In this document: piece by piece, positions 16,134 to 38,510 of the stretch
Position numbering within the stretch: position 1 is the first letter of the stretch
Layout of the letters: the number at the start of each line of letters is the position of its first letter
UHGV virus genome: UHGV-0382853
Origin: a virus
DNA: 40,325 bases
Direction: 5' to 3' (one strand)
The notes under the pieces: model-generated
Database searches by the model: none
Seen by the model: only the letters and a program-made list of their open reading frames with translations
Told to the model about the DNA's origin: nothing
Made by a program: the position numbers and the translations under genes

Positions 16134-16148
16134 TTACCTTTAAGGTAA
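16134..16148. promoter_or_regulatory. TTACC-N5-GGTAA palindrome (putative operator) upstream of the portal-side transcription unit
   Basis: ttacctttaaggtaa; TTGACA-like hexamer at 16112-16117. Confidence 0.5.
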
Positions 16149-16470
16149 CCAAAGAGTTCATTCCGGTTACTAACCTGACTGGCTTGTCGTTAAATTGAAC
16201 AGGTGGAGTGAGCTTTTATTTTGAGCAGTACGGCGTATGGCACATGCGCCGATAGCGGTCTGGATACGTTTAAGGGGCACCCTCCCTTGCTCGGGCAAAC
16301 GAACCAGGTAGCCGGAATGTGCAAGTCGAGCGGTTTTATTCCGCGCACGGGGATTCACCATCCCGGCGATTCGGTGTGACGCCTCGGAAGAGACGAGGGT
16401 ACAACGATGAGAGCATTTATGGAGCCGCGACAAAGTGTGGCGCCTTAACAGGCTAAGTGCTCTCAGCGTT

Positions 16471-16547
16471 GTGGCATTAGCTCAGTTGGACAGAGCAACC
16501 GCCTTCTAAGCGGTTGGTCGCAGGTTCGAATCCTGCATGCCACGCCA
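16471..16547 (+). tRNA. tRNA-Arg (anticodon TCT, reads AGA)
   Basis: Cloverleaf by eye: acceptor stem gtggcat/atgccac, anticodon loop cTTCTAAg, T-arm ggttcgaatcc, 3' CCA encoded. Confidence 0.85.
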
Positions 16548-16590
16548 GAATCACGCCTAAGGACCGTGATGCCAGAAGTTCCAGGGGCTT

Positions 16591-16632
16591 GGCGGTGATG
16601 GTTTCCCTTGAATGACTATCACCGCCCTTTTT
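16591..16632 (+). terminator. possible terminator hairpin after the tRNA
   Basis: ggcggtgat...atcaccgcc followed by cttttt; large loop, so weak. Confidence 0.3.
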
Positions 16633-16710
16633 ACAGCAGGACGCCATTGCGATGACTTCATGCTGTAAACCAGTACAGCCACGGAAGGCATAACTCATTG
16701 CTTCCAGTTC

Positions 16711-16734
16711 GCCCGGTTCGCCGGGCATTTTTTT
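16711..16734 (+). terminator. rho-independent terminator
   Basis: gcccgg-ttcg-ccgggc followed by attttttt. Confidence 0.6.
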
Positions 16735-16745
16735 AAGGTGAGATT

Positions 16746-17117
16746 ATGAACGACCAGCAAATCGAAAAAGAAATCGTTGAGAAAGGCAAAACTGCTCCGC
16801 GCGTTACGCCAGACCATATCGAAAGCATTATTGCTCAGGAGGCATATTTCACAGCAGAGGATGGTGCCTTTGGCAAAGCCATAAAAGCGAAACATACTGG
16901 CGGAGAGGTAAACTACCAGCCGCACGAATCACTTTCTCTGCTGACGTTCTGCGTCCTGGTGCTGCGCAACGGCTTCACCGTCACCGGAGAGAGCGCCTGT
17001 GCAAGCCCGGAAAACTTTGATGCAGAAATTGGTCGGAAGATTGCCCGGCAGAATGCTGTAAACAAAATCTGGATGCTTGAAGGTTACTTGCTGAAGCAGA
17101 AGTTAAGCGAGCAATAA
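16746..17117 (+). CDS. Gp49-like phage protein (Phage_gp49_66 family), moron
   Basis: 123 aa; N-terminal MNDQQIEKEIVEKGKTAPRVTPDHIE pattern typical of this family; opposite strand to flanking late genes; has its own SD. Confidence 0.55.
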   Translation: MNDQQIEKEIVEKGKTAPRVTPDHIESIIAQEAYFTAEDGAFGKAIKAKHTGGEVNYQPHESLSLLTFCVLVLRNGFTVTGESACASPENFDAEIGRKIARQNAVNKIWMLEGYLLKQKLSEQ

Positions 17118-17137
17118 CACCGTGACATGTCATAAAC

Positions 17138-17164
17138 AGCCAGCCTATGAGCTGGCTTTGTTTT
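17138..17164. terminator. bidirectional terminator between Gp49-like gene and terminase
   Basis: agccagc-ctatga-gctggct followed by ttgtttt; A-rich on the other side. Confidence 0.5.
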
Positions 17165-17207
17165 ATCCTCACCAGAGGATATCAATGACATTATCCCCAC
17201 CAGCGGA

Positions 17208-18683
17208 TTAAGCATAGGGATCGTAATCTGTAATGGCCTTGCCTTGCTGGTTCTGCTGCCCGGGAAGTCGCAGGCGCTTTGACACCGGGAAAGCAAACGT
17301 CAGCAGTAGCGCATCGCCTTTACCAGGAGAACGCCCAAGACGCTCTTTGATATCTTCCTTCGGTTCGATAACGATTTTACCGTCCACACGAACTTTGTAC
17401 TCTGCCGCCGACAGGTCGTCTGCAGTTTCCTGGTCATCCAGCATGCCGCCCAGCCTCAGCCATGTCTTACATGAGTTGAACATCTCCCCACGCTTGTTAA
17501 GCATCTGCGGGTCAGTGGACGCACCGCCGAACGGAACAAGTTGCCATGTACGCCCCCAGCCATCACCGATTGACTTCAAACCGGTTCCGTAACCGAAGTC
17601 GATGAACACCGCGTCAGCCTGATACTGGTCTTCAAAGTCAGCGATACGCTTCGCCATTATCAGATCGTCAGTGGTCTTGTTGCCAGTCCACAGCACCTTA
17701 CTGTGCAGCCCCTGCCGCAGGTATATCACAGCGTCATCAACTCCGGAGTATGCCGGGTCAACGCCGATTATCACCGGAGCATGTGCAACCTGCGCAGCGG
17801 TTACCACCCGTTTCATTGCCTCATCAGTAAGACCGGTAGGGATAAACTGCAATTCAGATGCATCAGGGAATATGCCGCGCACACGGATTTTAACGAAGTC
17901 GCTGTCTTCCCCGTAGTCATCAACCCATTTCTGCAACTGCTGTTTGTTAGTGCCTTCCACCGTCCGGCTGTCAATCTGCGCAGTTTTCCAGCGGTGTTTG
18001 TATTTGCGGAAACATTCGCGAAAACGCCCGGTGTTACGTGTAGGGTTTCCGAACGCCACCCAGATAATCTCAGTGTCTTCGTCCGTTAGCGCACCCTCGG
18101 CAACTTCCCACACCAGATCCGCAATGTTCGACGCTTCATCGAATACCACGATGATGCGTTTGCGCTCGTTGTGTAGTCCGGCGAATGCCTCAGTGTTGTG
18201 CTCAGACCAGGGGATTGCGTCAGCTCGCCACCGTTTGTCGTGCCCAGGATCATTGCTGTACATCGCGGTAGCGGTACAGGTAAACCAGTCTTTCGTGATA
18301 GCAAGGTTCGACCACTTGATAATTTCCGGCCAGGTCTTCGTTCGTAGCTGGTTGTCGGTGTTGGCGGTCACCACGACCTTACAATCCTCGCAAGTGGACA
18401 TGCCCCAGTTGATCAGCATTGAGATGAATGCGGATTTACCAATACCGTGACCAGAAGCGCGTGCCAGCATAAGCGGCTGATAGCGCGTCTCTGGATTCTG
18501 CAGGTGATCACGTATCTCTCTGAACGCATCGGCCTGCCACTGACGTGGACCGGTGGCATGTGCCAGTTCAGTACCCTCTTCCCCCCACGGGAACGCATAG
18601 AGGGCATAGCCAAGCGGATCGTGAGTGAACCCTGCAATATCCTCGATTAACTGCTCTTCAGGAGATAACGCTGTATCTGTCAC
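17208..18683 (-). CDS. terminase large subunit
   Basis: 491 aa; Walker A-like ASGHGIGKS; GTG start overlapping the small-subunit stop. Confidence 0.85.
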   Translation of the reverse strand: MTDTALSPEEQLIEDIAGFTHDPLGYALYAFPWGEEGTELAHATGPRQWQADAFREIRDHLQNPETRYQPLMLARASGHGIGKSAFISMLINWGMSTCEDCKVVVTANTDNQLRTKTWPEIIKWSNLAITKDWFTCTATAMYSNDPGHDKRWRADAIPWSEHNTEAFAGLHNERKRIIVVFDEASNIADLVWEVAEGALTDEDTEIIWVAFGNPTRNTGRFRECFRKYKHRWKTAQIDSRTVEGTNKQQLQKWVDDYGEDSDFVKIRVRGIFPDASELQFIPTGLTDEAMKRVVTAAQVAHAPVIIGVDPAYSGVDDAVIYLRQGLHSKVLWTGNKTTDDLIMAKRIADFEDQYQADAVFIDFGYGTGLKSIGDGWGRTWQLVPFGGASTDPQMLNKRGEMFNSCKTWLRLGGMLDDQETADDLSAAEYKVRVDGKIVIEPKEDIKERLGRSPGKGDALLLTFAFPVSKRLRLPGQQNQQGKAITDYDPYA

Positions 18684-19276
18684 TGATTGCCATCCTGACG
18701 TTCTTTCAGTCTCTTCCTGGCTGCCGCTATGCGATCAGCAATTGTCACATTCACATTAACATCCAGGCGTTCTTTGAACGCGTTGACGTCGACGTGCTTA
18801 CCAATCAGTTCGAGGTTCTTCACCTTGTCAGGCCATTTAATTTTTTTGAGGATTGTCTCTATCGAATCCTCGTCCATGTTCATGATGGTAGATGACAGAT
18901 CAAAGCCACTAAGCGTAGTGCGCCAGATTTTCGGCCACTCGCGGATTGGCTTAAGGCTTCCATCGTCGTTGAGGATATCAATCACGTCCATCTGGTCGAT
19001 CTCCACCAGGCGCATGAGAACGTAATCAGCACTGACGCGCATTCGTTTGTTGCGCTCCTCCATCAACTCGGCAATCCGTTTTTGAATGCGTTCATCGCGC
19101 ATCATGACACTGGCTTTAACTGCCGCTGTATTTGGGGAGAATCCTGCGTTAATCGCAGCCTGACTCTGGTTTTCAGGCGTTTTGATGTATGACTGGCAAT
19201 AAGCCTCCTGCATTGCTGTGAGCGGCTTAAATTGCGTTGATTTGCGTTTATAGGTTTTAGGTTCAGCAGGCATCAT
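18680..19276 (-). CDS. terminase small subunit
   Basis: Start moved to ATG 19276 (MMPAEPKTYKRK...) with GGGTGG SD; the track N-terminal extension is discarded; sits directly upstream of the large subunit. Confidence 0.65.
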   Translation of the reverse strand: MMPAEPKTYKRKSTQFKPLTAMQEAYCQSYIKTPENQSQAAINAGFSPNTAAVKASVMMRDERIQKRIAELMEERNKRMRVSADYVLMRLVEIDQMDVIDILNDDGSLKPIREWPKIWRTTLSGFDLSSTIMNMDEDSIETILKKIKWPDKVKNLELIGKHVDVNAFKERLDVNVNVTIADRIAAARKRLKERQDGNQ

Positions 19277-19293
19277 AACCACCCTGGTAATTG

Positions 19294-19308
19294 TTACCGT
19301 CGTGGTAA
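19294..19308. promoter_or_regulatory. TTACC-N5-GGTAA palindrome immediately upstream of terminase small subunit
   Basis: ttaccgtcgtggtaa between the terminator hairpin and the terminase start. Confidence 0.5.
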
Positions 19309-19320
19309 TAGTAACATGCA

Positions 19321-19345
19321 AAATAAAGCCGCCATAGTTGGCGGC
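19321..19345 (-). terminator. rho-independent terminator preceding the late (terminase) operon
   Basis: Hairpin gccgcca-tagt-tggcggc with T-tract on the minus strand (plus-strand aaataaa). Confidence 0.55.
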
Positions 19346-19394
19346 AGTATTCAAAACCCATCAAATTCATCATGCATAATCTACTCGTGACATG

Positions 19395-19733
19395 TCACAC
19401 TATTAATTTCGTTTCATGCCAGCCTTTAGTCACCCAGCATTGCGAGTCACCATTGCACGGGCATGAATTAACTGGAACTCTCTCGCCGCACTTACCGCAA
19501 CGTTTTCTGCTGATCGATTTTATACGCCCGCGCACGCGTGCATCATCCTGGCGGATCAGTAACGCTATATACTCACCAAATTCGTAAGGCGCACGCCCGG
19601 GGCGACGCGTGGCACAGTTACGCTCCAGCATTTCAATTTCCTGAGCATCAAGCACAATCTCCAGCTTACGTACACCGGATGCAGCTTGTCTGGCTCTCTG
19701 AGCGGCTTTGCGCTCTGCTGCTGATTTAGCCAT
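19395..19733 (-). CDS. zinc-ribbon protein, candidate late-gene regulator
   Basis: 112 aa; C-terminal CGKCGER...CPCNG...C cysteine cluster; last gene before terminator and terminase; AGGAAA SD. Confidence 0.4.
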   Translation of the reverse strand: MAKSAAERKAAQRARQAASGVRKLEIVLDAQEIEMLERNCATRRPGRAPYEFGEYIALLIRQDDARVRGRIKSISRKRCGKCGERVPVNSCPCNGDSQCWVTKGWHETKLIV

Positions 19734-20097
19734 TCTGATTTTCCTGCATCATGAGAAAGACAATCATGGCGGCGCGGAGTGGGTTGTTGTCTATGGTAAT
19801 AAATTTACAAAATCTATCCGCCTCCCACCAATATTCATTCTTCATTCCAGGATTATTTCTTTCGTATGCACATATGCTGATCTGATGTTTTGCGATTACA
19901 GGCCATGCAGCTCTCGGATCATTGCAGTAGTCAGGTAAAGGGTTTAATGGCTCAAAAGTTGTATCAGTATTTCCGTAATACCATTTGTTGGTGTTATTCC
20001 CTGATGTTTCCGGTTTACACGCCCAAAGGCCTTTAAAAATTATGTCTCCTACCATTCTGTTAATTTCAAAATCACTTAACTGTGAATAGTCCATCAT
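19726..20097 (-). CDS. DUF2591/NinX-like phage protein
   Basis: 123-aa ORF beginning MMDYSQLSDFEINRMVG; nin-region position. Confidence 0.4.
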   Translation of the reverse strand: MMDYSQLSDFEINRMVGDIIFKGLWACKPETSGNNTNKWYYGNTDTTFEPLNPLPDYCNDPRAAWPVIAKHQISICAYERNNPGMKNEYWWEADRFCKFITIDNNPLRAAMIVFLMMQENQNG

Positions 20098-20726
20098 TTC
20101 ACCTCCTGCGGCGGTTCTGGTAGAGGCATCCAGTGGGTTACGTCATCCAAGATATATCCTGATAAATACGTGAAAGCTCTATATTTTTTGTAATCAATTG
20201 GATTTACAACCCAGTTCCAATATGCGGCCACGATTTCACCTTGACTAAATGCCAGTAACATTTTGGTGTCTTCCGGCATTCGCTCACTACAGCTTATCCA
20301 ACCATCCGGAGTTACCGGAGAGTTGCCCGATAGCTTGTTCAACTTGTAATTCTGGCTTACAGGTTGGCTACCATGAAGCATGGCAGCACGGCAGGCATTC
20401 CAGCCTCTCACCTCTGCAATAGCGGCAACAGCATCGACCGCGTACATTTTAAGAGGGTTGGGCATTGGTTTTTCTTCAGGTACTACTGGCATTGGAGGGG
20501 CGGCGTATACTTCAATAATCCCATTATCAATAGGCCATTCTCCATCCTTGAGGTAGTCACTTGTGCCGTCAACTTGCTGTTCTGCAATGTGGAATGCACC
20601 TATTGGTTTTGCTTCCAGCGATGCCAGAGCAATTCGTGCCAGTTCCATTTGTTCACCACGGGTAAGCCCGTTTTCAAGCGGATTTTTAATGAACAATTCA
20701 ATACGTTCTTTGGTAATAGTGGTCAT
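20094..20726 (-). CDS. DUF551-domain phage protein
   Basis: C-terminal ...HWMPLPEPP motif typical of DUF551; AAGGAGT SD. Confidence 0.5.
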   Translation of the reverse strand: MTTITKERIELFIKNPLENGLTRGEQMELARIALASLEAKPIGAFHIAEQQVDGTSDYLKDGEWPIDNGIIEVYAAPPMPVVPEEKPMPNPLKMYAVDAVAAIAEVRGWNACRAAMLHGSQPVSQNYKLNKLSGNSPVTPDGWISCSERMPEDTKMLLAFSQGEIVAAYWNWVVNPIDYKKYRAFTYLSGYILDDVTHWMPLPEPPQEVK

Positions 20727-20736
20727 GTGTTACTCC

Positions 20737-21000
20737 TTAACCCGCAGTGCTTTCAACTGATGAGGGGAATAAAATCTTTTCATCAAATCCGGCATTCATA
20801 TCATGGACAGCAACACACCAATCCATCGACGAACGATTATCAAGAGCCTCCATGATTTCATCCATGCGGCGCAGGTCATACAGGTAAATGCTTTTATCGC
20901 CAATGGTGTAAAAACCAATTTTTTTCGGTGATGGGCAGCGATCAAGAACGTCCTGTAATTCGTTCAACCATGCCCGTTCTTTTTTTGTTAAAGTTGCCAT
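20737..21000 (-). CDS. hypothetical protein
   Basis: Start moved to ATG 21000 (MATLTKKERAW...) with AAGGAGAG SD. Confidence 0.4.
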   Translation of the reverse strand: MATLTKKERAWLNELQDVLDRCPSPKKIGFYTIGDKSIYLYDLRRMDEIMEALDNRSSMDWCVAVHDMNAGFDEKILFPSSVESTAG

Positions 21001-21001
21001 A

Positions 21002-21688: not shown

Positions 21689-21689
21689 A

Positions 21690-22664: not shown

Positions 22665-23009
22665 TCAGAACTCTTCGATGTTCCAGCCACCACCTGCTTT
22701 CTTTGGTTTAACCGTTACCCCGATGATTCGGAACGGATACTGATCTGCGGCGACTTTGGTTTTCACCCTGGCGTCGTCGGTCCAGAAACCTTTCACTTCG
22801 TGCAGTTCCATCTCGCCGGTGGCGAGCATCACAGCAAAATCGGGCGTATAGAACGTGTTGTCAGCTAACCGCAACTTGATACCCTCAAATCGATACCAGA
22901 CGATTTCCCCTGCACGTTTACGCTGCTCAAGGTGCTGGCAATACGCAGATTCTGTTTTGTTCATCTGGCCTGTTTTGAGTCGACCAAGAGCCTGTATCTG
23001 TTTTCTCAT
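22665..23009 (-). CDS. DUF1064-like phage protein
   Basis: 114 aa; motif ...YTPDFAV...ELHEVKG...; position after replication genes. Confidence 0.45.
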   Translation of the reverse strand: MRKQIQALGRLKTGQMNKTESAYCQHLEQRKRAGEIVWYRFEGIKLRLADNTFYTPDFAVMLATGEMELHEVKGFWTDDARVKTKVAADQYPFRIIGVTVKPKKAGGGWNIEEF

Positions 23010-23012
23010 GAT

Positions 23013-23027
23013 TTACCTCTAAGGTAA
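23013..23027. promoter_or_regulatory. TTACC-N5-GGTAA palindrome
   Basis: ttacctctaaggtaa, 4 bp upstream of the start codon at 23009 (overlaps its RBS region). Confidence 0.5.
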
Positions 23028-23074: not shown

Positions 23075-23089
23075 TTACCCAACAGGTAA
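23075..23089. promoter_or_regulatory. TTACC-N5-GGTAA palindrome
   Basis: ttacccaacaggtaa in the P/DUF1064 intergenic region. Confidence 0.5.
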
Positions 23090-23927: not shown

Positions 23928-24724
23928 GCTTCAGGGCTGTTCCAGTGCGGAACGTTGTTATCAGGTAATGTTGATTGCTTCTGTCTGCTAATCTGCAGCC
24001 GCCTTGCCAGCTTCTGCTCCCACTGTGCCTGATGGTATGCCTTACCCTCAGCCATCCAGTAAATTCTGAACTCTGCAAGTTCCTGTGCCGTTGGCAGACT
24101 GTCCAGGTAGATCCCCTGCAATGAGCTTTTCCGAAGAAAGTCATCTGATGGCTGCCATTGTTCATGCATGACAAATTTGCCTAATTGCCCTGGCCCACCA
24201 GGAGGAACAAAGTTATTCATCACGGCGTTGTTTGCGTTGGGGTCATGATGCACAGAATCCCCGTTTTTTGTCCTGCTCTCCCTCTCTTGGTTAAATGACT
24301 GGTTATATGACTGGTTCTGGATCCCGTTTTTGGGATCATTCAACATCCCGTTTTTGGGATCATTCAACATCCCGTTTTTGGGTATATTCCCGCTTTCGGT
24401 AACATTACCGTTTTCGGGTTCATTACCCCCTTCCCGGTTGCCTTTAATGTTCCCTTTTTTGGTTATATTAAGAGAGAAAACCCGTACTCTTTTCGTCGCC
24501 CCCTTTCTCTCTCCGGTATCTGAAATAAGCCCCATTTTCATGAGCGATATAAGCCCGGCCTGCACGGTTTTTTTATTCAGGCAAGTGTCTTTAACGAGGC
24601 GTTCTATGCTGGGGTAGCAGAGGTTATATTCATCGGCTCTGTCAGCCATCGAGAGCAGTATGAGCTTTAATGATGAGCTACCTGGATCTGTCTCCCAGGC
24701 CCAATCTGTTGCATGTCTGCTCAT
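23909..24724 (-). CDS. replication initiator O-like protein
   Basis: N-terminal winged-HTH-like domain; central peptide repeats (PKNGMLND x2-3) coincide with DNA iterons; overlaps the P-like gene; GGAGAT SD. Confidence 0.7.
   Translation of the reverse strand: MSRHATDWAWETDPGSSSLKLILLSMADRADEYNLCYPSIERLVKDTCLNKKTVQAGLISLMKMGLISDTGERKGATKRVRVFSLNITKKGNIKGNREGGNEPENGNVTESGNIPKNGMLNDPKNGMLNDPKNGIQNQSYNQSFNQERESRTKNGDSVHHDPNANNAVMNNFVPPGGPGQLGKFVMHEQWQPSDDFLRKSSLQGIYLDSLPTAQELAEFRIYWMAEGKAYHQAQWEQKLARRLQISRQKQSTLPDNNVPHWNSPEAWEDFL
24321..24480. repeat. replication origin: 24-bp-period iterons with dyad ATCCC-N6-GGGAT plus adjacent AT-rich tract, inside the O-like gene
   Basis: atcccgtttttgggat at 24321 and 24345, degenerate copies at about 24369 and 24405, then tttttt/ttatatta AT-rich stretch. 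Confidence 0.65.
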
Positions 24725-25020: not shown

Positions 25021-25035
25021 TTACCTTTGAGGTAC
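25021..25035. promoter_or_regulatory. TTACC-N5-GGTAC palindrome variant
   Basis: ttacctttgaggtac, between the tR1-like terminator and the next gene. Confidence 0.35.
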
Positions 25036-25090: not shown

Positions 25091-25321
25091 TCATGAGTAG
25101 AAGAAGTATGCCAGTTCTGCTTTTGAGCGCAGCCATTGTCTTGATTTACAGGCTTTAAAAAGCCCATTCATCAATACCTTACCTGGCATTTTGCGCTTAC
25201 CTGTTAAGTGAGTCTGGATATAGTGACTCGTCGTTCCGGCTTCCTGTGCGAAGGCTTCACGCTCATCCGGAGTAAGTGCAAGCCAGTGCTTTTTGAAATC
25301 GAAATGTCCGTTATCGCTCAT
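25091..25321 (-). CDS. Cro-like HTH regulator
   Basis: 76 aa, HTH-like segment TPDEREAFAQEAGTTSHYIQ; divergent from the repressor; first gene of the operon containing O and P. Confidence 0.5.
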   Translation of the reverse strand: MSDNGHFDFKKHWLALTPDEREAFAQEAGTTSHYIQTHLTGKRKMPGKVLMNGLFKACKSRQWLRSKAELAYFFYS

Positions 25322-25357: not shown

Positions 25358-25372
25358 TCACCTATAAGGTAA
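25358..25372. promoter_or_regulatory. operator-like palindrome in immunity region
   Basis: tcacctataaggtaa (one-mismatch variant). Confidence 0.45.
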
Positions 25373-25405
25373 CAAAAATCAAGGATAGTTACCCATGAGG
25401 TGCAT

Positions 25406-25420
25406 TTACCTGTTGGGTAA
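25406..25420. promoter_or_regulatory. operator-like palindrome in immunity region
   Basis: ttacctgttgggtaa; an additional partial site ttacccatgaggtgc lies at about 25390-25404. Confidence 0.5.
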
Positions 25421-25475
25421 TATTGCTTTAAATTGAATCATCTTCTGATTCAGATATGAGGCGATTTTCCAGAAA

Positions 25476-26060
25476 ATGAAAAGTATCCAGGACGTCCGCA
25501 GGCAAAATCTCAACGACTTGATCGACCGTGAATTCAATGGTGTTCAGACGCGGATGGCTGAAAAACTTGGAACTCAGGCAAATCTGGTAAACCGCTGGGC
25601 TCTTGGCAAGAAGGTTATCGGCGACCAGGTTGCGCGAAAAATTGAAGCTGCCGCCAATAAACCCCGTAACTGGCTTGATATCGATCGCTCGCTTTCTCAG
25701 GAAGGTTTTCAGCCTGTCGGACCAAGCGACATTGGTCAACTGGCGGCTCACAACCTGAAACGCTGGATGAGCGAAAGCCGCGACCTTTCAACGCAGGGAA
25801 AACTTCACCGCGCATCCGGCGTCGCCCAGGTAACAATCAGTCGCCTGTTAAACAATGAGGTCAGCGTTTCCATTTCCACCCTGGAGAATGTTGCATCCGC
25901 ATTCGGGCGTCACGGCTATGAATTACTGATTCACCCGCACGACCCTGCGACCATCAACTATGACCGCTCGCGCTACGCATTGTTACCCGAAACCGAGAAA
26001 GCAAAGATCGAAAGTTACATTGAATTTGTCATCAACCAGAACGAAAAAAACAAACAATAA
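25476..26060 (+). CDS. phage repressor, tandem-HTH type with no recognisable peptidase (autocleavage) domain
   Basis: 194 aa; two HTH-like segments (QTRMAEKLGTQANLVNRWALGKK and LHRASGVAQVTISRLLNNEVS); no S24-like Ser/Lys motifs seen; divergent from cro-like gene. Confidence 0.6.
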   Translation: MKSIQDVRRQNLNDLIDREFNGVQTRMAEKLGTQANLVNRWALGKKVIGDQVARKIEAAANKPRNWLDIDRSLSQEGFQPVGPSDIGQLAAHNLKRWMSESRDLSTQGKLHRASGVAQVTISRLLNNEVSVSISTLENVASAFGRHGYELLIHPHDPATINYDRSRYALLPETEKAKIESYIEFVINQNEKNKQ

Positions 26061-26117: not shown

Positions 26118-26132
26118 TTACCTAACGGGTAA
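26118..26132. promoter_or_regulatory. operator-like palindrome at early-left promoter
   Basis: ttacctaacgggtaa; TTGACA at 26152-26157. Confidence 0.5.
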
Positions 26133-26179
26133 TTTTTTTAACTCATATCTATTGACATCAAACCAGATACGCATAATTA

Positions 26180-26194
26180 TTACCTCAACGGTAA
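26180..26194. promoter_or_regulatory. operator-like palindrome at early-left promoter
   Basis: ttacctcaacggtaa, about 20 bp upstream of the first early-left ORF. Confidence 0.5.
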
Positions 26195-26366: not shown

Positions 26367-26368
26367 TA

Positions 26369-31404: not shown

Positions 31405-31419
31405 ATACCTTTAAGGTAA
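31405..31419. promoter_or_regulatory. operator-like palindrome upstream of integrase, nested in a larger inverted repeat
   Basis: atacctttaaggtaa flanked by tgacggtat (31390-31398) and ataccgtca (31419-31427). Confidence 0.45.
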
Positions 31420-33477: not shown

Positions 33478-33679
33478 GTTTTCCACCGTTTATATGCATA
33501 ACAACCTCCTGAACAGTAAAGCATTACGCATAATAAACCATTTATGGTTTTTTGTTACTTTAACATCGTCAATTCCCTGTTTTTCATGCCGAGAATAAAG
33601 CTCACCTTTTACATGACTCTGAAGAAACAAACAGTGAAGAGCAGGTTGAATACCGCACCATTTAATGGCGCGGTAGCAG

Positions 33680-33976
33680 TCAAATAGAGAAATAAACACA
33701 AAAACAAAAAACAACAGGAACAGCAAAATCCAACAGACTTCCCACATCCCACACGCGTGGATCAAAACCTCCCCACCACGGCATGTTGATACGTTTCCCT
33801 TTCCCAAACTTTTCTATCCAGCGATATTCTGCCTGGGTGTGTTCACGCGCAATGAAGAACGTACAACCGGCTATCGCACCGTAAGCCCAGTTTCCGGTAA
33901 AAATACCAACCAGTACCTGAGCCACAAAAGCGCAAAGCGAGTGAAGAAATGGAGTGACATCAATGCTCTTAATCAT
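33680..33976 (-). CDS. small membrane protein co-transcribed with tailspike
   Basis: 98 aa, two hydrophobic segments; ATG overlaps the tailspike stop (ATGA). Confidence 0.45.
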   Translation of the reverse strand: MIKSIDVTPFLHSLCAFVAQVLVGIFTGNWAYGAIAGCTFFIAREHTQAEYRWIEKFGKGKRINMPWWGGFDPRVWDVGSLLDFAVPVVFCFCVYFSI

Positions 33977-36162
33977 GAAACTTCCCCATTGGTTGAAAAT
34001 ATGGCTCCTCCAACGCCAAGTGTATTTCGTGTTGTGCTCAACCTCAGAGGGCTGGAGTCAGAATTAGAATATCCTGTAGCAGAAATAAAAGATCCTCCAC
34101 TAATAGTCAACTGCGGAACATCGGCTATATCTGAATAAGTTCTGTCAGCAACAGTATTATTTATAGCCACATATGATCCAAAAAAACTTCTTATTGTTTG
34201 GTTTTTAACTTTACTTCCTTCAATGGTTATCCTACTACCACAGTCGGCAATAAATCCTGAATCTGCATCCAGCGTTGCATTCATAAAAGAAGCTTCAGAT
34301 CTCTCTACATCAATCCATCTAATATCTTTTGTGGGATTTGCACCAAATACATGACAAATATTAGAGTTAAACCTTACACCATCTTGGAGGTGCATTAATT
34401 TTTTTATATCTGTACCCCATAGCCTTGGAAAATTAACAGATGCTCCTGCATGGCAATCAAATCCCAGCTCAGCCCCTGAGATATCTACAGCCTTTCCTGA
34501 AATAACAGCACCAGTGTCTGCATTAACGGCTGTTCCACAATTGCGCATATCATTACCAGCAACATCAACGCAACCCGCACCATCAATACGCACACCAAGT
34601 GCACATCCATAAAAACCTTTTTCAATATTTGGTTCAAGGACTTTACCACTTGTTTCTGCATCACTTTCTTCAACGTCATGTCGTCTTGCATCAACATATG
34701 CTGTATGAATGCAGGTTAATCCACGATATGAGCAATGTATAGTTTTATGGTCGCGTATATTAACATTTGAACCATCTCTTACATTCCATCCTATATAACA
34801 ATAGCTTGCACTTGACCCCTGAAAATCTGCTTTAACATTATAAATACAATTAACTGACGCAACCGTACTCTCTGTGCACCGTTCAAACTTGCTTACAGGC
34901 ATTGATGCCTTGACATTATTTACCAGTTGCAGGGAAGAGTATCTGCTATAAGAAAAATCACATACGTAATACCCTTCTGGCATATATGCAGCAACACTTT
35001 CCTCATCAGGAGCACATCCGGTATGATATGCACTAATTTTTGCACCAAAACTACCATGAATTCCAACGTAGAACTTTCGAGCACCTGAATACGGATAGAA
35101 ATTAAGTTCAGCTTTTTGAGTTACAATAAATGCACAAACATCGCTATCATCTCTATTTTCTTCGATCTGAATAGCAAATACAGGACTTTTTGCTGCATCG
35201 CAAATGTAAAATAAATACTTGTATTCGTAATACGTTCTAACGATTTTAGTAAACAAACGAGTGTCAGAGAAAACCACTGAGTCTTCTGATGTTATTTTAA
35301 TCCAAGACAAATCAACACCTGAACTGAATTCAATTTGATAGTTGATAATATGCCCGGTCTTAATTCTTATTTCGCAGAAAGCATTACCACCATCCCACAT
35401 AGGTCTCATTGACTGGGCTGCAATGATTGCATCTTTGAGTGTAGGGTAATCACCCCATTCGCCAACAGTAATAACAAAAGTATAATATGAGTTAAAAACA
35501 GCGGCATTTTTGCCTTTGGATATCAACTCCTTAATCATAAAAATATTATCTTCGTAATCACAAGGAGAAATTATATCCCTCATTTTGCTTTGAAATGTTC
35601 GTTGTCTTGCCCCGCTTCCTGACGGTATAAACCAACCAAAACCACCAACAACCCCGGCGATTGCAGCATCGACATAATTACGCATTGAGCGATTATTTAC
35701 AGCATCCTGCTCAAGTGATGGATCTGCAAGGTTAGAAATTCTGTTTTGCTTTGCATCGTAATATTTTGCAAGCAGAGAGGGCTTCATCAATGCACGTCTG
35801 AACCACCCAAAACATTGCTGGATCAGCATCGTCAGGTAGTCAAAGGCATCTTCATGCACTTCGGGGAAAAATTTTCCCTGATTGCGAAGGTCTGTCTCCT
35901 GCACTACATCAAGCACACGATCTATCGTAATTCGCCATCCAGTAGCAAGCGGAGACGGAAGAACCACAGAACCGCCACTATAAGTGCCCGCCCCAGTTAC
36001 CGTATAACCGGTATCCAGGACCAATTCTGTTACGTTCCCGTTCAGGTCAGACACCTGAACAACCAGGTCTGATTTTCTGAAAATTCGAAAAGTATACGGA
36101 AACGATGTCGTAACGCCGTTACCGGTGTATTCGTTGTGGTCAACTTCGGTTGAGACCGTCAT
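33973..36162 (-). CDS. tailspike / tail fibre with conserved N-terminal anchor and probable beta-helix depolymerase C-terminal domain
   Basis: 729 aa; N-terminus ...YTGNGVTTSFPYTF...LDTGYTV...ITIDRVL...ETDLRNQG resembles podoviral tail-fibre N-terminal domain; the C-terminal two thirds are AT-rich with Cys/Asn/Ser/Gly-rich repeats. Confidence 0.65.
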   Translation of the reverse strand: MTVSTEVDHNEYTGNGVTTSFPYTFRIFRKSDLVVQVSDLNGNVTELVLDTGYTVTGAGTYSGGSVVLPSPLATGWRITIDRVLDVVQETDLRNQGKFFPEVHEDAFDYLTMLIQQCFGWFRRALMKPSLLAKYYDAKQNRISNLADPSLEQDAVNNRSMRNYVDAAIAGVVGGFGWFIPSGSGARQRTFQSKMRDIISPCDYEDNIFMIKELISKGKNAAVFNSYYTFVITVGEWGDYPTLKDAIIAAQSMRPMWDGGNAFCEIRIKTGHIINYQIEFSSGVDLSWIKITSEDSVVFSDTRLFTKIVRTYYEYKYLFYICDAAKSPVFAIQIEENRDDSDVCAFIVTQKAELNFYPYSGARKFYVGIHGSFGAKISAYHTGCAPDEESVAAYMPEGYYVCDFSYSRYSSLQLVNNVKASMPVSKFERCTESTVASVNCIYNVKADFQGSSASYCYIGWNVRDGSNVNIRDHKTIHCSYRGLTCIHTAYVDARRHDVEESDAETSGKVLEPNIEKGFYGCALGVRIDGAGCVDVAGNDMRNCGTAVNADTGAVISGKAVDISGAELGFDCHAGASVNFPRLWGTDIKKLMHLQDGVRFNSNICHVFGANPTKDIRWIDVERSEASFMNATLDADSGFIADCGSRITIEGSKVKNQTIRSFFGSYVAINNTVADRTYSDIADVPQLTISGGSFISATGYSNSDSSPLRLSTTRNTLGVGGAIFSTNGEVS

Positions 36163-36266
36163 GTTAAATCTCCAGATAGTCGCAGCACCCGTTGCGCCGC
36201 ATATCTGGTTATTCTATTACCTGAAAAACCACATATGGATAAAAAGGCTGTAAATACGAATAGATA

Positions 36267-36281
36267 TTACCTTTCAGGTAA
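36267..36281. promoter_or_regulatory. operator-like palindrome between tailspike and antirepressor
   Basis: ttacctttcaggtaa; half-site ttacctgaa at about 36217. Confidence 0.5.
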
Positions 36282-36320
36282 TTTGCAAAACGTGCTGGAT
36301 AGCAAACAAATTATTTGCTA

Positions 36321-36336
36321 CTGTATAAATATACAG
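36321..36336. promoter_or_regulatory. LexA (SOS) box
   Basis: taCTGTataaatatACAGtt: exact CTGT-N8-ACAG with AT-rich spacer, 22 bp upstream of the ATG at 36358. Confidence 0.75.
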
Positions 36337-36357
36337 TTATTGCATGGAGAAGATAAG

Positions 36358-36615
36358 ATGCAGCGGTATCACTATCCACTGGAAGACGGATTTACCGAAA
36401 GGATTCACACGCCGGGAGGCGTCAGGTCACTGGTGGAGGGATCGCACTTGATGAAATTACTCCGGGATCTCGATAAGGATGGATTTAATGTCGATGGCCC
36501 ACTTGCCGAACTGACTGCACTGATTAACTACGTTACCAGCTCACAGATGTCTATGCGGGATCTGCAAACACATCTCGACTATTGTGCCGAACAATTACGA
36601 AAACAAACCCGGTAA
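36358..36615 (+). CDS. small antirepressor-like protein, paralog of the C-terminal domain of the AntA-type antirepressor
   Basis: 85 aa from ATG 36358 (GGAGAAG SD); aligns with the C-terminus of the 37766..38422 product (IH.P.GV...LM.LL..L..DG..V.G..AELT...LRD.QTH); the track start 36235 lies upstream of the LexA box and is discarded. Confidence 0.6.
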   Translation: MQRYHYPLEDGFTERIHTPGGVRSLVEGSHLMKLLRDLDKDGFNVDGPLAELTALINYVTSSQMSMRDLQTHLDYCAEQLRKQTR

Positions 36616-36622
36616 ATTTAAA

Positions 36623-36638
36623 GGCCGCAAGAGCGGCC
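36623..36638. terminator. bidirectional terminator hairpin
   Basis: ggccgc-aaga-gcggcc flanked by T-rich sequence on both strands; between convergent genes. Confidence 0.5.
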
Positions 36639-37366
36639 TATCGTTTCGCTTTGTGCTCGTCCCAGCACGTTTTGCACCATGCCATTAAGCCATCCGCATT
36701 TTGATTATTAGGGTAAAAGCTTGTTCGTTTTCTGCGGACATTACAAATTGGGCACCACTTCATATGGCGTGTATTCTTTGGGCCATCGAGACACCTTGCA
36801 CACCACTTAGTCAATCCATCTGGATTTTTTGACGATTTCCTGAATTTTTCATATGGTAGGTTTATTCTGCATCGCAAGCACTGCTTGCTACCACTTGAAA
36901 CTCTGTTAGCTGATTCTTCTTTTGGCGGCGATACAGAAGGTATTCTTGCTGGCTCTGATACTGCCTGAGGTGCTTTTTTAGATGACTGAGACGATATGTC
37001 ATCACCAGGGAATCTTCCATGATATGCCGGACGCATTGACACTCCAGGTGGAAGCTCAGCTGTAAACGGCTTTGGCTGAATCAGTTGCCTCTCTTTTGCT
37101 AACTCCTGCTGTTTATAATATGTCTGGATTACCGCACTATCATAAGCAGGAGGTGCGGAAATATTAGGCGCATTACCTCCAGTTTTTTGAAACTGAGTAG
37201 AGGTGTGTTCTATCACCTGTGTACGATTAATCGTTATCTCCCCATCTTCGGTCTTTATCGTTTTGTTATGATTAACGACCGTACGATCAGAGATCTTAGT
37301 CTTGTTCTGGTTGATAACGTAAATAATCACCGCAACCACACCAACAACTATCCAGAAAACTTCCAT
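36638..37366 (-). CDS. membrane-anchored protein with duplicated C-terminal zinc-ribbon (CxxC-N-CxxC x2)
   Basis: 242 aa; N-terminal TM helix (FWIVVGVVAVIIYVI); C-terminal repeats C.RC...DGL..WC..C; GAGGAAAA SD. Confidence 0.5.
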   Translation of the reverse strand: MEVFWIVVGVVAVIIYVINQNKTKISDRTVVNHNKTIKTEDGEITINRTQVIEHTSTQFQKTGGNAPNISAPPAYDSAVIQTYYKQQELAKERQLIQPKPFTAELPPGVSMRPAYHGRFPGDDISSQSSKKAPQAVSEPARIPSVSPPKEESANRVSSGSKQCLRCRINLPYEKFRKSSKNPDGLTKWCARCLDGPKNTRHMKWCPICNVRRKRTSFYPNNQNADGLMAWCKTCWDEHKAKR

Positions 37367-37386
37367 TGCTTTTCCTCACAATAACA

Positions 37387-37401
37387 TTACCTTAAAGGTA
37401 A
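37387..37401. promoter_or_regulatory. operator-like palindrome
   Basis: ttaccttaaaggtaa, about 21 bp upstream of the minus-strand start at 37366. Confidence 0.5.
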
Positions 37402-37479
37402 TATCTTGCTTTCAGGTGATCAAGCGTTAAACGCAATCAACCAAATACGGTTGATTTTAATATTTCTTCGCGTTTATCA

Positions 37480-37494
37480 TTACCTTTGCGGTAA
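37480..37494. promoter_or_regulatory. operator-like palindrome
   Basis: ttacctttgcggtaa at the head of the antirepressor leader. Confidence 0.5.
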
Positions 37495-37585
37495 ATTTAC
37501 ATTGCACTCCTCTTGTGCCATAGTAATCGGGCACTGGCAAAATCCAGTGCCGGGATTGGTCTCCCGGATTACTAAGTGGCGCATA

Positions 37586-37607
37586 CCACGCCAGACGTGG
37601 TTTTTTT
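37586..37607 (+). terminator. rho-independent terminator inside the antirepressor leader
   Basis: ccacg-ccaga-cgtgg followed by ttttttt. Confidence 0.55.
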
Positions 37608-37765
37608 ATGCGTATAGCACAGTCATGCCAGAATTATGGTGGGCTGAATGGGGGTCCGAAAGGACGCCGGTACCACTTAGGCCGGTAAGACCAACTCCGT
37701 TCAGTTCACCACCATCTGATTGGTCTCAGCGGTGGTGATGTAATTCGCTAAGTGGAGACGCCATC

Positions 37766-38422
37766 ATGAACGCTCAACTCATCCCCGTATTCAACGGCAC
37801 TATATCTAACGAAACAGCCCTACTTTGTAATGCCCGCGATCTGCACACTTTTTTAGGTGTTAAAAAGGTGTTTGCAGCATGGATTACAAATCGCATATCA
37901 GAATACGAATTCATTGAAAATCAAGACTATATTTTGCTTTCCAATTTGGGAAAGCAAACATCTGGTAGAGGCGGCCACAACCGCAAAGAGTACCACCTCA
38001 CCCTTGATACAGCCAAAGAGCTGGCGATGGTCGAGCGTAACGAAAAAGGTCGCCAGGTGCGACGCTACTTCATTGAATGCGAGAAACGTTTAAGACAACA
38101 AGAAACAAAAGTGGAGAAGGTCTTGTCAGGCTTCATGCCCGCCATTATGGAGGCGATCAAGCTGGAAGACAAAAAAGAATACAGCGCCCCACTGAAGCCC
38201 GGCTACCGCAGCCTGATTCATTCTCCGTCTGGTGTTCTCGGACTGACGGAGAACTCACTGCTGATGAATCTGCTGAACCAGTTACAGGAAGACGGGCACG
38301 ACGTATCGGGCGCGGCGGCGGAGCTGACCACCATGTTCTGCTACATCGTCGGTGTGAGCAAATGCCTGCGTGATATCCAGACGCACGCGGAGTACATCAA
38401 CGACAAGGCAGGGTTCTTCTGA
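37766..38422 (+). CDS. antirepressor (AntA/AntB N-terminal domain)
   Basis: 218 aa; N-terminal IPVFNGT...LCNARDLHTFLGVKKVFAAWITNRISEYEFIENQDYIL typical of AntA domain; C-terminal domain paralogous to the 36358 product. Confidence 0.7.
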   Translation: MNAQLIPVFNGTISNETALLCNARDLHTFLGVKKVFAAWITNRISEYEFIENQDYILLSNLGKQTSGRGGHNRKEYHLTLDTAKELAMVERNEKGRQVRRYFIECEKRLRQQETKVEKVLSGFMPAIMEAIKLEDKKEYSAPLKPGYRSLIHSPSGVLGLTENSLLMNLLNQLQEDGHDVSGAAAELTTMFCYIVGVSKCLRDIQTHAEYINDKAGFF

Positions 38423-38431
38423 CAGAACGGC

Positions 38432-38453
38432 GGCACAGGGATGTGCCTTTAAA
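38432..38453 (+). terminator. possible terminator after antirepressor
   Basis: ggcaca-ggga-tgtgcc followed by tttaaata. Confidence 0.4.
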
Positions 38454-38495
38454 TAATTCTGTACAGATTGCAGACCGGGGGTGAATAGCGTACTA

Positions 38496-38510
38496 TTACC
38501 TTAAAGGTAA
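38496..38510. promoter_or_regulatory. operator-like palindrome
   Basis: ttaccttaaaggtaa, about 26 bp upstream of the ATG at 38537. Confidence 0.5.

What the first reader, a model, noticed from the sequence alone, without database searches (positions are those of the whole stretch)
16134..38510. One 15-bp palindrome (TTACC-N5-GGTAA) at about 14 intergenic sites, marking the heads of early, late, lysogeny and accessory transcription units
Copies found at about 16134, 19294, 23013, 23075, 25021, 25358, 25406, 26118, 26180, 31405, 36267, 37387, 37480 and 38496. None was seen inside a coding region. They cluster in the cro/repressor intergenic region (2-3 copies) and flank the TTGACA of the early-left promoter, as expected for repressor operators. 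They also precede terminase, the portal-side unit, integrase, tailspike, both antirepressor-region promoters and the AT-rich cassette. A single operator type distributed over late and accessory promoters is unusual for a lambdoid circuit. In three cases the right arm (AAGGTAA) sits where a Shine-Dalgarno would be, so the motif may act at both DNA and RNA level.
Basis: seen in the sequence. Interest (0 to 1): 0.75.

Follow-up and report, generated by a model that had tools for sequence, protein, structure and literature searches.

The report
Dispersed repressor operators, epsilon15-like phage
The repeated 15-bp palindrome is real and is almost certainly the binding site of this ε15/phiV10-type phage's immunity repressor, placed on nearly every promoter so that one protein silences the whole prophage; the same sites are already annotated as repressor-binding in phage ε15, so it is a known design.

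Summary
Observation confirmed. TTACC-N5-GGTAA occurs 11 times exactly (0.00 expected) and 15 times with ≤1 mismatch (0.66 expected). All sites lie in the 7.8% of the window that is intergenic. The window is a Uetakevirus (phiV10/ε15-like podophage), not a lambdoid phage. The motif is equally over-represented at syntenic positions in ε15, phiV10, SPC32H, Tyrion and a Klebsiella relative. The ε15 GenBank record already labels seven of these sites "protein_bind: repressor", including those before terminase, gp3/portal and tailspike. The window's repressor (25476-26060) is a full-length homologue of SPC32H Rep (PDB 5D50). A LexA-boxed small antirepressor 87% identical to SPC32H Ant is also present. 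The sites sit on predicted promoters in fixed geometries. Two pairs lie exactly 62 bp apart and bracket a promoter, invariant in six phages. Three operators occupy the rep/cro region at invariant 31 + 17 bp spacing. Single sites lie at +1 or -10 of accessory promoters. Best explanation: a dispersed Rep operator regulon (confidence 0.85). Repressor binding is inferred, not shown. An RNA-level role is not supported beyond overlap with Shine-Dalgarno sequences. Novelty: already known for this phage genus; modest interest.

The parts
25476..26060 (+). Rep, the immunity repressor. It has an N-terminal Cro/YdaS-like HTH, a middle HTH_3-like domain, a C-terminal tetramerisation/Ant-binding region, and no S24 peptidase domain.
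   Evidence: Full-length match to SPC32H Rep PDB 5D50, E 3.9e-42; Pfam; the recognition-helix core NL[VI][NS]RW is invariant in Reps down to 40% identity.
25091..25321 (-). Cro-like small repressor (phiV10 p41 homologue), divergent from rep.
   Evidence: phrog_35 'transcriptional repressor', E 8.7e-13; weak HTH similarity to the Rep N-terminal domain.
25358..25372 (.). Operator O1 (TCACC..GGTAA, 1 mismatch), lying in the spacer of the predicted cro promoter (-35 TTGATT 25382-25377 or TTGTTA 25375-25370).
   Evidence: Position and the invariant AAAAATCAA (= TTGATTTTT) are shared by six phages.
25389..25403 (.). Operator O2 (TTACCCATGAGGTGC, 2 mismatches), 31 bp from O1 and 17 bp from O3.
   Evidence: The copy is perfect at this position in epsilon15, SPC32H and BUCT711.
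25406..25420 (.). Operator O3. It overlaps the candidate rep promoter -35 (TTTACC 25405-25410; -10 TAAATT 25429-25434).
26118..26132 (.). Distal operator of the rightward early promoter, 19 nt upstream of -35 TTGACA (26152-26157), followed by a conserved T-tract.
26180..26194 (.). Proximal operator of the same promoter. The -10 AATTAT (26175-26180) ends on its first T. It lies 62 bp from the distal operator.
23075..23089 (.). Distal operator of the leftward middle promoter, just after the terminator that follows the replication genes.
   Evidence: The geometry is identical to 26118.
23013..23027 (.). Proximal operator of the middle promoter (-35 TTGATT 23055-23050, -10 TTTAAT 23032-23027, minus strand). 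Its right arm and spacer form the SD of the gene starting at 23009.
   Evidence: GGTAAATCATG is invariant although the downstream gene differs (DUF1064 or RuvC).
25021..25035 (.). Operator with a weak arm (GTACC on the minus strand), just after the cro terminator and 17 nt upstream of -35 TTGATC (25003-24998). It belongs to the replication-gene promoter. A lone half-site TAACC (24975-24971) sits 22 nt after the -35.
19294..19308 (.). First of two tandem operators between the p55 terminator (19345-19328) and terS.
19276..19290 (.). Second tandem operator (1 mismatch), 18 bp from the first and ending 2 nt before the terS ATG (19273).
16134..16148 (.). Operator between the gp3/portal operon and the tRNA-Arg/p03 unit. 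An invariant TTGACA (16112-16117, + strand) lies 16 nt upstream, so the operator overlaps the -10.
   Evidence: The equivalent epsilon15 site 2931-2947 is annotated 'repressor'.
31405..31419 (.). Integrase-proximal site, 42 nt upstream of the int start. It always has the same weak arm (GGTAT) and is nested in a larger inverted repeat GACGGTAT..ATACCGTC.
   Evidence: Assignment as an operator is least secure here because the whole region is 89% conserved.
36267..36281 (.). Operator in the divergent tailspike/small-Ant intergenic region.
   Evidence: The equivalent epsilon15 site 19895-19911 is annotated 'repressor'.
36321..36336 (.). LexA box CTGTATAAATATACAG upstream of the small antirepressor gene.
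   Evidence: Invariant CTGTAT..ATACA across six phages.
36358..36615 (+). Small antirepressor Ant.
   Evidence: 87% identical to SPC32H Ant.
37387..37401 (.). Operator 20 nt upstream of the leftward orf242 (36638-37366). A -35-like TTGATC (37423-37418) lies 16 nt upstream.
37480..37494 (.). Operator at +1 of promoter TTGATT(37451)-18-TATCAT(37480), which drives isrK, C4 RNA and AntA antirepressor.
38496..38510 (.). Operator at +1 of promoter TTGCAG(38468)-17-TACTAT(38496), 3 nt before the ATG of a variable AT-rich cargo slot.
   Evidence: The same promoter and operator occur in phiv142-3 (6153), with different cargo starting right after GGTAA.

Best explanation
The palindromes are the operators of the phage's immunity repressor Rep (25476-26060), and probably also of the Cro-like protein. 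Rep is of the SPC32H type. According to the literature it binds palindromic sites as a tetramer, with paired N-terminal HTH domains.

This genome does not have two operator clusters plus an antitermination cascade. Instead it is cut by terminators into about ten separate transcription units, and each unit carries its own copy or copies of the operator on or next to its promoter.
- In the rep/cro region, O1 lies in the spacer of the cro promoter. O2 and O3, 17 bp apart, overlap the -35 of the rep promoter (autoregulation).
- At the rightward early promoter and at the leftward middle promoter, one operator covers -10/+1 and a second lies 19 nt upstream of the -35. The two are exactly 62 bp apart, about six helical turns. 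One tetramer could therefore hold both and clamp the promoter.
- Single operators cover -10 or +1 of the promoters for the tRNA/p03 unit, orf242, the isrK-C4-AntA module and the variable cargo slot.
- A tandem pair abuts the terS start.

In the lysogen all these units are shut. DNA damage removes LexA from the box in front of the small Ant gene. Ant then takes the Rep tetramer apart, and every unit is released.

Shown here: the sites, their statistics, their intergenic and promoter-proximal placement, and their conservation. Also shown: co-occurrence with a Rep homologue whose recognition helix is conserved. Inferred: binding by Rep, the promoter assignments, bridging of the 62-bp pairs, and the order of derepression.
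For: - Statistics and placement.
- The same motif is over-represented in epsilon15 (15 sites), phiV10 (14), SPC32H (18), Tyrion (15) and BUCT711 (13), each against about 0.5 expected.
- Seven epsilon15 sites annotated 'protein_bind / repressor / lysogeny' coincide base for base with motif hits.
- Rep is a homologue of PDB 5D50. Ant is 87% identical to SPC32H Ant, and the LexA box is present.
- Literature: SPC32H Rep binds palindromic DNA sites as a tetramer, with DNA-binding-domain pairs drawn from different dimers (PMC9638917). Its domain layout is DBD, dimerisation domain and tetramerisation domain (PMC9986798). Overexpressing the identical repressor in phage ZX5 cuts lysis-gene transcripts by about 99.97-99.99% (PMC9782041).
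- Phylogenetic footprints: arms and spacings are invariant while spacers and flanks vary.
- A scan of viral contigs found at least 120 loci with the 62/63-bp bracket. Of these, 100 encode a Rep homologue (40-100% identity) with an invariant NL[VI][NS]RW helix. Spacing peaks fall at 17-18, 30, 48 and 62-63 bp.
- Moraxella phage Mcat9 shares only the Rep N-terminal domain. It has related sites (TTACCTAAAAGATAA, TTACCTGTAAGGTTG) only in its own rep/cro intergenic region.
Against: - There are no binding data for this phage.
- The primary epsilon15 and SPC32H papers could not be read. I therefore cannot say which operators were tested experimentally.
- Promoter calls are consensus matches, and such matches are not enriched over shuffles (10 against 13.9). 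They rest on conservation and fixed geometry only.
- The terS tandem sites have no recognisable -35 upstream.
- The int-proximal site lies in a region so conserved that no footprint is visible, and it is part of a larger inverted repeat.
- Rep proteins only 42% identical share one operator. This is unusual for immunity repressors and leaves room for a second conserved binder.
Confidence: 0.85

Rival explanations
1. The sites are bound mainly by another conserved phage regulator and Rep acts only in the rep/cro region. Candidates are the Cro-like protein, the p55/phrog_536 'transcriptional regulator' encoded just upstream of terS, or a PerC/AlpA-type protein.
For: - The motif is identical in phages whose Rep is only 42% identical.
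- Several other small regulators are conserved across the genus.
- The Cro-like protein has an HTH weakly similar to the Rep N-terminal domain.
- Sites at late units could suit a late regulator.
Against: - The densest, positionally invariant cluster sits between rep and cro on both divergent promoters.
- The Rep recognition helix is invariant wherever the motif occurs.
- The epsilon15 annotators assigned the late-gene sites to the repressor too.
- Sites lie at -10/+1, which are repressing rather than activating positions.
- Cro sharing the repressor's operators is the normal case and is compatible with the main explanation.
Confidence: 0.07
2. The palindrome acts in RNA, as a hairpin that controls translation or processing at the 5' ends of operons. 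Its right arm doubles as the Shine-Dalgarno sequence.
For: - The right arm plus spacer give GAGGT/AAGGT 6-8 nt before the ATG at 23013, 38496 and 19276. This is invariant in relatives.
- The epsilon15 record predicts RNase III sites near some intergenic regions.
Against: - The hairpins have only 5-7 bp and -3.5 to -5 kcal/mol, with z-scores mostly -1.3 to -2.8.
- Arm sequences are invariant, with no compensatory changes, across six phages and 896 sites.
- Predicted transcription starts fall inside the operator, so the left arm would not be transcribed.
- Many sites are far from any start codon.
Confidence: 0.03
3. The sites are primarily recombination or mosaic-boundary sequences at which gene cassettes are exchanged, not regulatory sites.
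For: Cargo differs immediately after the operator at 38496 (window against phiv142-3 and TL-2011b). It also differs after the 23013-type operator (DUF1064 against RuvC).
Against: - Fixed geometry relative to -35/-10 elements.
- A triple cluster in the immunity region.
- The sites are present between genes that never vary.
- Shared regulatory modules are the usual homology patches for illegitimate or homologous exchange, so this would be a consequence rather than the function.
Confidence: 0.03

Closest known systems
Repressor-binding sites annotated in Salmonella phage epsilon15 (GenBank AY150271.2)
   Same: The sequence motif is identical and the positions are syntenic: before terS, before gp3/portal, before tailspike, downstream of rep, and after the replication genes.
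   Different: The epsilon15 record marks only 7 of its 15 motif copies. It omits the rep/cro cluster, the proximal partners of the 62-bp pairs, and the int and lysis sites. The window adds sites for an isrK-C4-AntA module, orf242 and a cargo slot that epsilon15 lacks. phiV10-type records carry no operator annotation.
SPC32H Rep-Ant-LexA antirepression switch (PDB 5D50/5D4Z; Kim and Ryu 2013; Kim et al. 2016, as cited in PMC9638917 and PMC9986798)
   Same: There is a full-length Rep homologue and an Ant 87% identical. A LexA box precedes ant, and Rep has no autocleavage domain. SPC32H carries the same dispersed motif.
   Different: Rep is only about 42% identical overall. The window has a second, P1-immI-like antirepressor module (C4/isrK/AntA) that is also fitted with the operator. 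I could not read the primary papers to learn which operators were tested.
Phage P1 C1 repressor with operators dispersed over the genome (established knowledge: Lobocka et al. 2004; not checked here)
   Same: One immunity repressor controls many separate units through scattered operators that overlap promoters. These include the promoter of the c4-ant (immI) operon. The window likewise has an operator on the promoter of its C4-RNA/antirepressor module.
   Different: P1 operators are asymmetric 17-mers of unrelated sequence, and C1 is an unrelated protein. P1 late genes depend on the Lpa activator.
Mycobacteriophage L5/Bxb1 stoperators and Streptomyces phiC31 conserved inverted repeats (established knowledge; not checked here)
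   Same: There are many copies of one repressor site, confined to short intergenic regions all over the genome, late regions included.
   Different: Stoperators are asymmetric, orientation-dependent and mostly not at promoters, since they block elongation. Here the sites are palindromic and mostly sit on predicted promoters. The phiC31 repeats are palindromic like these but unrelated in sequence and in protein.
Lambda OR/OL switch
   Same: Three operators lie between divergent repressor and cro promoters, one of them overlapping the repressor's own promoter. A second operator set controls the recombination-gene operon.
   Different: There is no S24 domain, and operators occur at about ten loci rather than two. 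Paired operators 62 bp apart bracket a promoter instead of forming tandem triplets. No N- or Q-type antitermination logic is evident.

Membership tests
Uetakevirus (epsilon15/SPC32H-type) Rep operator regulon | Site sequence equals the sites annotated as repressor-binding in epsilon15. | tested here: met
   All 7 annotated epsilon15 features coincide with TTACC-N5-GGTAA hits. The window consensus is aTTACCtnwnaGGTAAt.
Uetakevirus (epsilon15/SPC32H-type) Rep operator regulon | An SPC32H-type Rep is encoded beside the densest operator cluster. | tested here: met
   5D50 match over residues 1-190, E 3.9e-42. Three operators lie in the 154-bp rep/cro gap.
Uetakevirus (epsilon15/SPC32H-type) Rep operator regulon | Sites occupy the same intergenic positions as in other members. 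| tested here: met
   Nine of ten site classes align with phiV10, Tyrion, epsilon15, SPC32H and BUCT711, with invariant arms and spacing. The lysis-cassette site is absent because the cassette is co-transcribed behind tailspike in this window.
Uetakevirus (epsilon15/SPC32H-type) Rep operator regulon | LexA-controlled small antirepressor that inactivates Rep. | tested here: met
   Ant is 87% identical. A perfect LexA box lies at 36321-36336. Function was not tested.
Uetakevirus (epsilon15/SPC32H-type) Rep operator regulon | Rep physically binds the palindrome. | not testable with these tools
   Indirect evidence only: co-occurrence with a conserved recognition helix in 100 of 120 loci, and secondary literature.
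Lambdoid cI/Cro OL-OR system | Repressor with a RecA-stimulated S24 autocleavage domain. | tested here: not met
   Pfam finds only HTH families.
Lambdoid cI/Cro OL-OR system | Operators confined to two clusters flanking the repressor gene. | tested here: not met
   16 sites at ten loci spread over 22 kb.
Stoperators (L5/Bxb1 gp71 type) | Asymmetric site with orientation bias relative to transcription. | tested here: not met
   The arms are a perfect palindrome.
Stoperators (L5/Bxb1 gp71 type) | Sites act away from promoters as elongation blocks. | tested here: inconclusive
   Most sites overlap predicted -10/+1. The terS tandem pair has no clear promoter and could act as a roadblock.
P1 C1 dispersed-operator regulon | 17-bp asymmetric C1 operator and a C1-family repressor. 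| tested here: not met
   The motif is different and palindromic, and Rep is an HTH protein of the 5D50 family. Only the layout is analogous.
Structured RNA / translational operator | Stable hairpin maintained by compensatory changes. | tested here: not met
   -3.5 to -5 kcal/mol. The arms are invariant and show no covariation.

The most novel reading that the evidence does not exclude
The invariant geometries may encode a repression-only developmental programme that has not been described in the literature I could reach.
- One Rep tetramer would bridge the two operators fixed 62 bp apart, next to conserved A/T tracts. This would wrap the early and middle promoters in a micro-loop.
- Operators kept imperfect in every lineage would fire first as Ant titrates Rep. 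These are O1 at the cro promoter, the replication-gene operator and the int operator.
- Paired or tandem perfect operators would fire last. Timing would then come from graded operator strength rather than from antitermination.
- The fused promoter-operator-RBS module would act as a portable left boundary for exchangeable cargo genes.
Probability: 0.3. Interest if true: 0.5.

Novelty: already known. Interest (0 to 1): 0.27.

Why it matters
The finding explains how this widespread group of E. coli, Salmonella, Klebsiella and Enterobacter prophages is kept silent. One tetrameric repressor sits on every transcription unit, and a LexA-gated antirepressor releases all of them.

In practical terms:
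- It gives a ready operator map for the phiV10-type genomes, whose database records lack one.
- It corrects the terS start annotated in phiV10.
- It shows that accessory cargo, such as the AT-rich cassette here or a YafO toxin in TL-2011b, is plugged in behind a Rep-controlled promoter. Such cargo should therefore be silent in the lysogen and expressed on induction.

It does not reveal a new kind of system.

Tried and rejected
- **Primary papers.** I tried to read the epsilon15 genome paper and the two SPC32H papers by PMC id, DOI and PubMed id. None is held.
- **Literature searches.** Full-text searches for the motif string and for Uetakevirus operators found nothing beyond the ZX5 paper, which maps no operator.
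- **Two-mismatch scan.** It gave 26 extra hits against about 11 expected. Nearly all are coding and unconserved, so I rejected all but 25389.
- **RNA hairpin reading.** Rejected: the energies are weak and there is no covariation.
- **Second shared motif.** ATGTGGTT occurs 3 times against 1.85 expected, so it is not significant on its own. It is kept only as a passing note because its positions are conserved.
- **Distant Rep N-terminal-domain homologues.** Mcat9 and PseuP_224 lack the dispersed motif. Mcat9 has related sites only in its immunity region, and PseuP_224 was uninformative.
- **Sandbox limits.** The Python sandbox did not receive loci L002 and L004-L008. De novo palindrome ranking was therefore done only for the window, phiV10 and phiv142-3. 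The other genomes were tested with the fixed pattern.
- **Promoter scan.** As statistical support it is rejected, because the scan finds no more promoter-like sites than shuffles do.

Full report
**1. Observation**

- TTACC-N5-GGTAA occurs 11 times exactly (0.00 expected). It occurs 15 times with at most one mismatch (0.66 expected, at most 4 in 100 shuffles).
- Among all 5+5 palindromes with spacers from 0 to 12, this one is far the most over-represented. The runners-up are its own sub-palindromes.
- On a gene map curated against phiV10 and phiv142-3, none of the 16 sites touches coding sequence. Only 7.8% of the window is intergenic (P about 2e-17).
- The symmetrised consensus is a-TTACC-T-n-W-n-A-GGTAA-t.
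- Hits with exactly two mismatches are mostly background.

**2. What the window is**

- It is a Uetakevirus, about 98% identical to phiv142-3, PAS61 and phiV10 over most of its length. It is related at 76-82% to Tyrion, epsilon15 and SPN1S. It is not a lambdoid phage.
- The minus strand carries, from 25321 downwards: a cro-like gene, replication genes, a block of small early genes, terS/terL, and the structural operon.
- The plus strand from 25476 carries rep, recET-type genes and a methylase.
- Integrase, the lysis cassette and tailspike are on the minus strand between 30115 and 36162.
- An antirepressor/accessory region follows.

**3. The motif is a property of the genus and is already annotated**

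- The same pattern is equally over-represented in five relatives, each with about 0.5 expected:

| Phage | Sites at ≤1 mismatch |
|---|---|
| epsilon15 | 15 |
| phiV10 | 14 |
| SPC32H | 18 |
| Tyrion | 15 |
| Klebsiella phage BUCT711 | 13 |

- The epsilon15 GenBank record AY150271.2 carries seven features 'protein_bind, bound moiety repressor, lysogeny'. They lie before terS, before gp3/portal, before tailspike, three downstream of rep, and one after the replication gene. Each coincides with a motif hit.
- The phiV10 and phiv142-3 records have no such features.

**4. The candidate binder**

- The ORF at 25476-26060 matches the SPC32H repressor (PDB 5D50) over its whole length (E 3.9e-42).
- It has an N-terminal Cro/YdaS-like HTH and a middle HTH_3-like domain, and no S24 peptidase domain.
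- According to papers I could read, SPC32H Rep binds palindromic DNA sites as a tetramer, and its DNA-binding-domain pairs come from different dimers. It is disassembled by a tetrameric antirepressor (PMC9638917). Its layout is DBD, middle dimerisation domain and C-terminal tetramerisation domain (PMC9986798).
- The window also encodes a small Ant 87% identical to SPC32H Ant. A perfect LexA box lies 21 nt upstream of its start.
- Overexpressing the repressor of phage ZX5 removed about 99.97-99.99% of lysis-gene transcripts (PMC9782041). That paper says the ZX5 repressor has the same sequence as phiV10's, and it is 99.5% identical to the window's.

**5. Co-occurrence of repressor and motif**

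- Rep proteins of the E. coli, Enterobacter, Klebsiella and Salmonella lineages are only 42-77% identical. All keep the HTH recognition segment (A/Q/P)NL(V/I)(N/S)RW.
There are usually two such pairs about 3.1 kb apart, on contigs of 38-46 kb.
- Of those loci, 100 encode a Rep homologue within the fetched stretch, at 40-100% identity and always with that helix.
- In these loci there are 896 sites in 1.45 Mb. Neighbour spacings peak at 17-18, 30, 48 and 62-63 bp. The 62-bp peak is selected for by the query; the other peaks are not.
- Moraxella phage Mcat9 shares only the N-terminal domain (36% identity). It has related sites only in its own rep/cro gap.

**6. Anatomy in the window**

*Rep/cro region.* Three operators lie at 25358, 25389 and 25406. 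Their spacings of 31 and 17 bp are invariant in six phages.
- The first lies in the spacer of the predicted cro promoter, whose -35 TTGATT is invariant.
- The third overlaps a candidate rep -35 (TTTACC), with -10 TAAATT.

*Bracketed promoters.*
- 26118/26180 bracket TTGACA-17-AATTAT, reading rightward.
- 23075/23013 bracket TTGATT-17-TTTAAT, reading leftward.
- The two modules share one geometry: distal operator, 19 nt, -35, 22 nt, proximal operator. The last base of the -10 is the first T of TTACC.
- Centre-to-centre distance is 62 bp in all six phages, except 63 bp at one BUCT711 pair.
- Arms, -35 and spacing are invariant. Operator spacers and flanks vary.
- A conserved T- or A-tract follows each distal operator.

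*Single operators at +1.*
- 38496 sits at +1 of TTGCAG-17-TACTAT.
- 37480 sits at +1 of TTGATT-18-TATCAT. That promoter drives isrK (37531-37607), a C4 antisense RNA (37632-37716) and an AntA-family antirepressor.

*Operators over a -10.* 16134 lies 16 nt after an invariant TTGACA on the plus strand, facing tRNA-Arg and p03. 37387 has the same relation to a TTGATC facing orf242.

*Replication-gene operator.* 25021 follows the cro terminator and lies 17 nt upstream of an invariant TTGATC. A lone half-site sits 22 nt after that -35.

*terS tandem pair.* 19294/19276 are 18 bp apart, just after a terminator, and end 2 nt before the conserved terS ATG. No -35 is recognisable there. These two may block read-through or sit on an activator-dependent late promoter.

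*Integrase site.* 31405 has the same weak arm (GGTAT) in every lineage. It is nested in a larger inverted repeat within an 89%-conserved region. It is the least secure member of the set.

**7. How it most likely works**

- Terminators cut the genome into separate units, and each unit carries its own Rep operator.
- Rep in the lysogen occupies all of them. Where two operators lie six helical turns apart, one tetramer could hold both, given its four DNA-binding domains. That bridging is an inference.
- LexA cleavage releases Ant, and Ant dismantles Rep. This step is known for SPC32H from the literature and inferred here from homology.
- Cro presumably uses the same sites.
- Several sites are imperfect in every lineage: the cro-promoter site, the replication-gene site and the int site. 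This suggests graded affinities, but I have no test of that.

**8. RNA-level idea**

- The right arm plus spacer do provide the Shine-Dalgarno sequence at 23013 (GAGGTAAatcATG, invariant although the downstream gene differs), 38496 and 19276.
- This follows from operators sitting on the start of very short leaders.
- As hairpins the sites are weak. The arms are conserved in sequence rather than in pairing. Predicted starts fall within the operator, so the left arm would not be in the transcript.
- I do not think the palindrome functions as an RNA structure.

**9. Comparison and novelty**

- The system is a member of the epsilon15/SPC32H Rep operator regulon. Every defining feature testable here is met, and only physical binding is untested.
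- It works like other one-repressor, many-operator phages: P1 C1, L5/Bxb1 stoperators and the phiC31 inverted repeats. These comparisons rest on general knowledge. It is not a member of any of those families, because the site and the protein differ.
- It differs from lambda in having no autocleaving repressor and about ten operator loci.
- I rate it as already known, because the same sites are annotated in epsilon15 and the repressor has been studied structurally.
- Some features may or may not be in the primary papers, which I could not read: the full site list, the invariant 62-bp bracket, the 31 + 17 bp triple, and the operator-promoter-RBS module that heads a variable cargo slot.

**10. 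Limits**

- Promoters are consensus matches, not enriched over shuffles.
- There are no expression or binding data for this phage.
- Several relatives could be tested only with the fixed pattern.

Noticed in passing
window 37531-37716 (+): Rfam isrK (67.7 bits) and C4 antisense RNA (61.2 bits) lie in tandem upstream of an AntA-family antirepressor gene (37766-38422). This is a P1-immI/Gifsy-like second antirepressor module, in addition to the LexA-controlled small Ant. Its promoter carries a Rep operator at +1.
   Followed up: partly
window 38496-39612; phiv142-3 (L003) 6153 onward: The promoter and operator at 38468-38510 are conserved in relatives, but the genes behind them differ from the base after GGTAA. 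Here the cargo is an AT-rich (36-39% GC) pair, orf74 and orf288 (phrog_3630, unknown function). TL-2011b carries a YafO-family toxin in the same slot. This looks like a variable cargo slot under Rep control.
   Followed up: partly
window 16082-16092 and 36227-36237 (minus strand): A block CATATGTGGTT-N5-GGTAATA lies downstream of the operators that precede gp3/portal and tailspike. It is almost invariant in six phages, and ATGTGGTT also sits in the spacer of the 23055 promoter. It may be a late-promoter or activator element. Genome-wide, the 8-mer alone is not significantly enriched.
   Followed up: partly
window 16471-16547 (+): A tRNA-Arg(tct) lies on the strand opposite to the late genes. 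It overlaps the ORF annotated as p04 in phiV10, and phiv142-3 annotates it on the other strand. The operator at 16134 with its conserved TTGACA faces it.
   Followed up: partly
window 19273-19354; phiV10 (L001) 41-121: phiV10's annotated terS start (41) puts both tandem operators and part of a terminator tail inside the CDS. The ATG at window 19273 is conserved in all relatives and is used in epsilon15, SPC32H, Tyrion and phiv142-3. The phiV10 start is probably too far upstream.
   Followed up: yes
window 24288-24427: Three adjoining tandem-repeat arrays lie inside the DnaT-like replication gene: 12 bp x2.4, 24 bp x2.6 at 100% identity, and 18 bp x3.1. They look like iterons of a replication origin embedded in the initiator gene.
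   Followed up: no
window 38776-38811: A long perfect inverted repeat with a 15-bp stem (CTGGTTAGTGGTTAT ATTATG ATAACCGCTAACCAG) lies just inside the start of orf288 in the AT-rich cargo.
   Followed up: no
window 36358-36615 versus 25476-26060: Ant is 87% identical to SPC32H Ant, whereas the Rep it should target is only about 42% identical to SPC32H Rep. The antirepressor is thus far more conserved than its partner.
   Followed up: no
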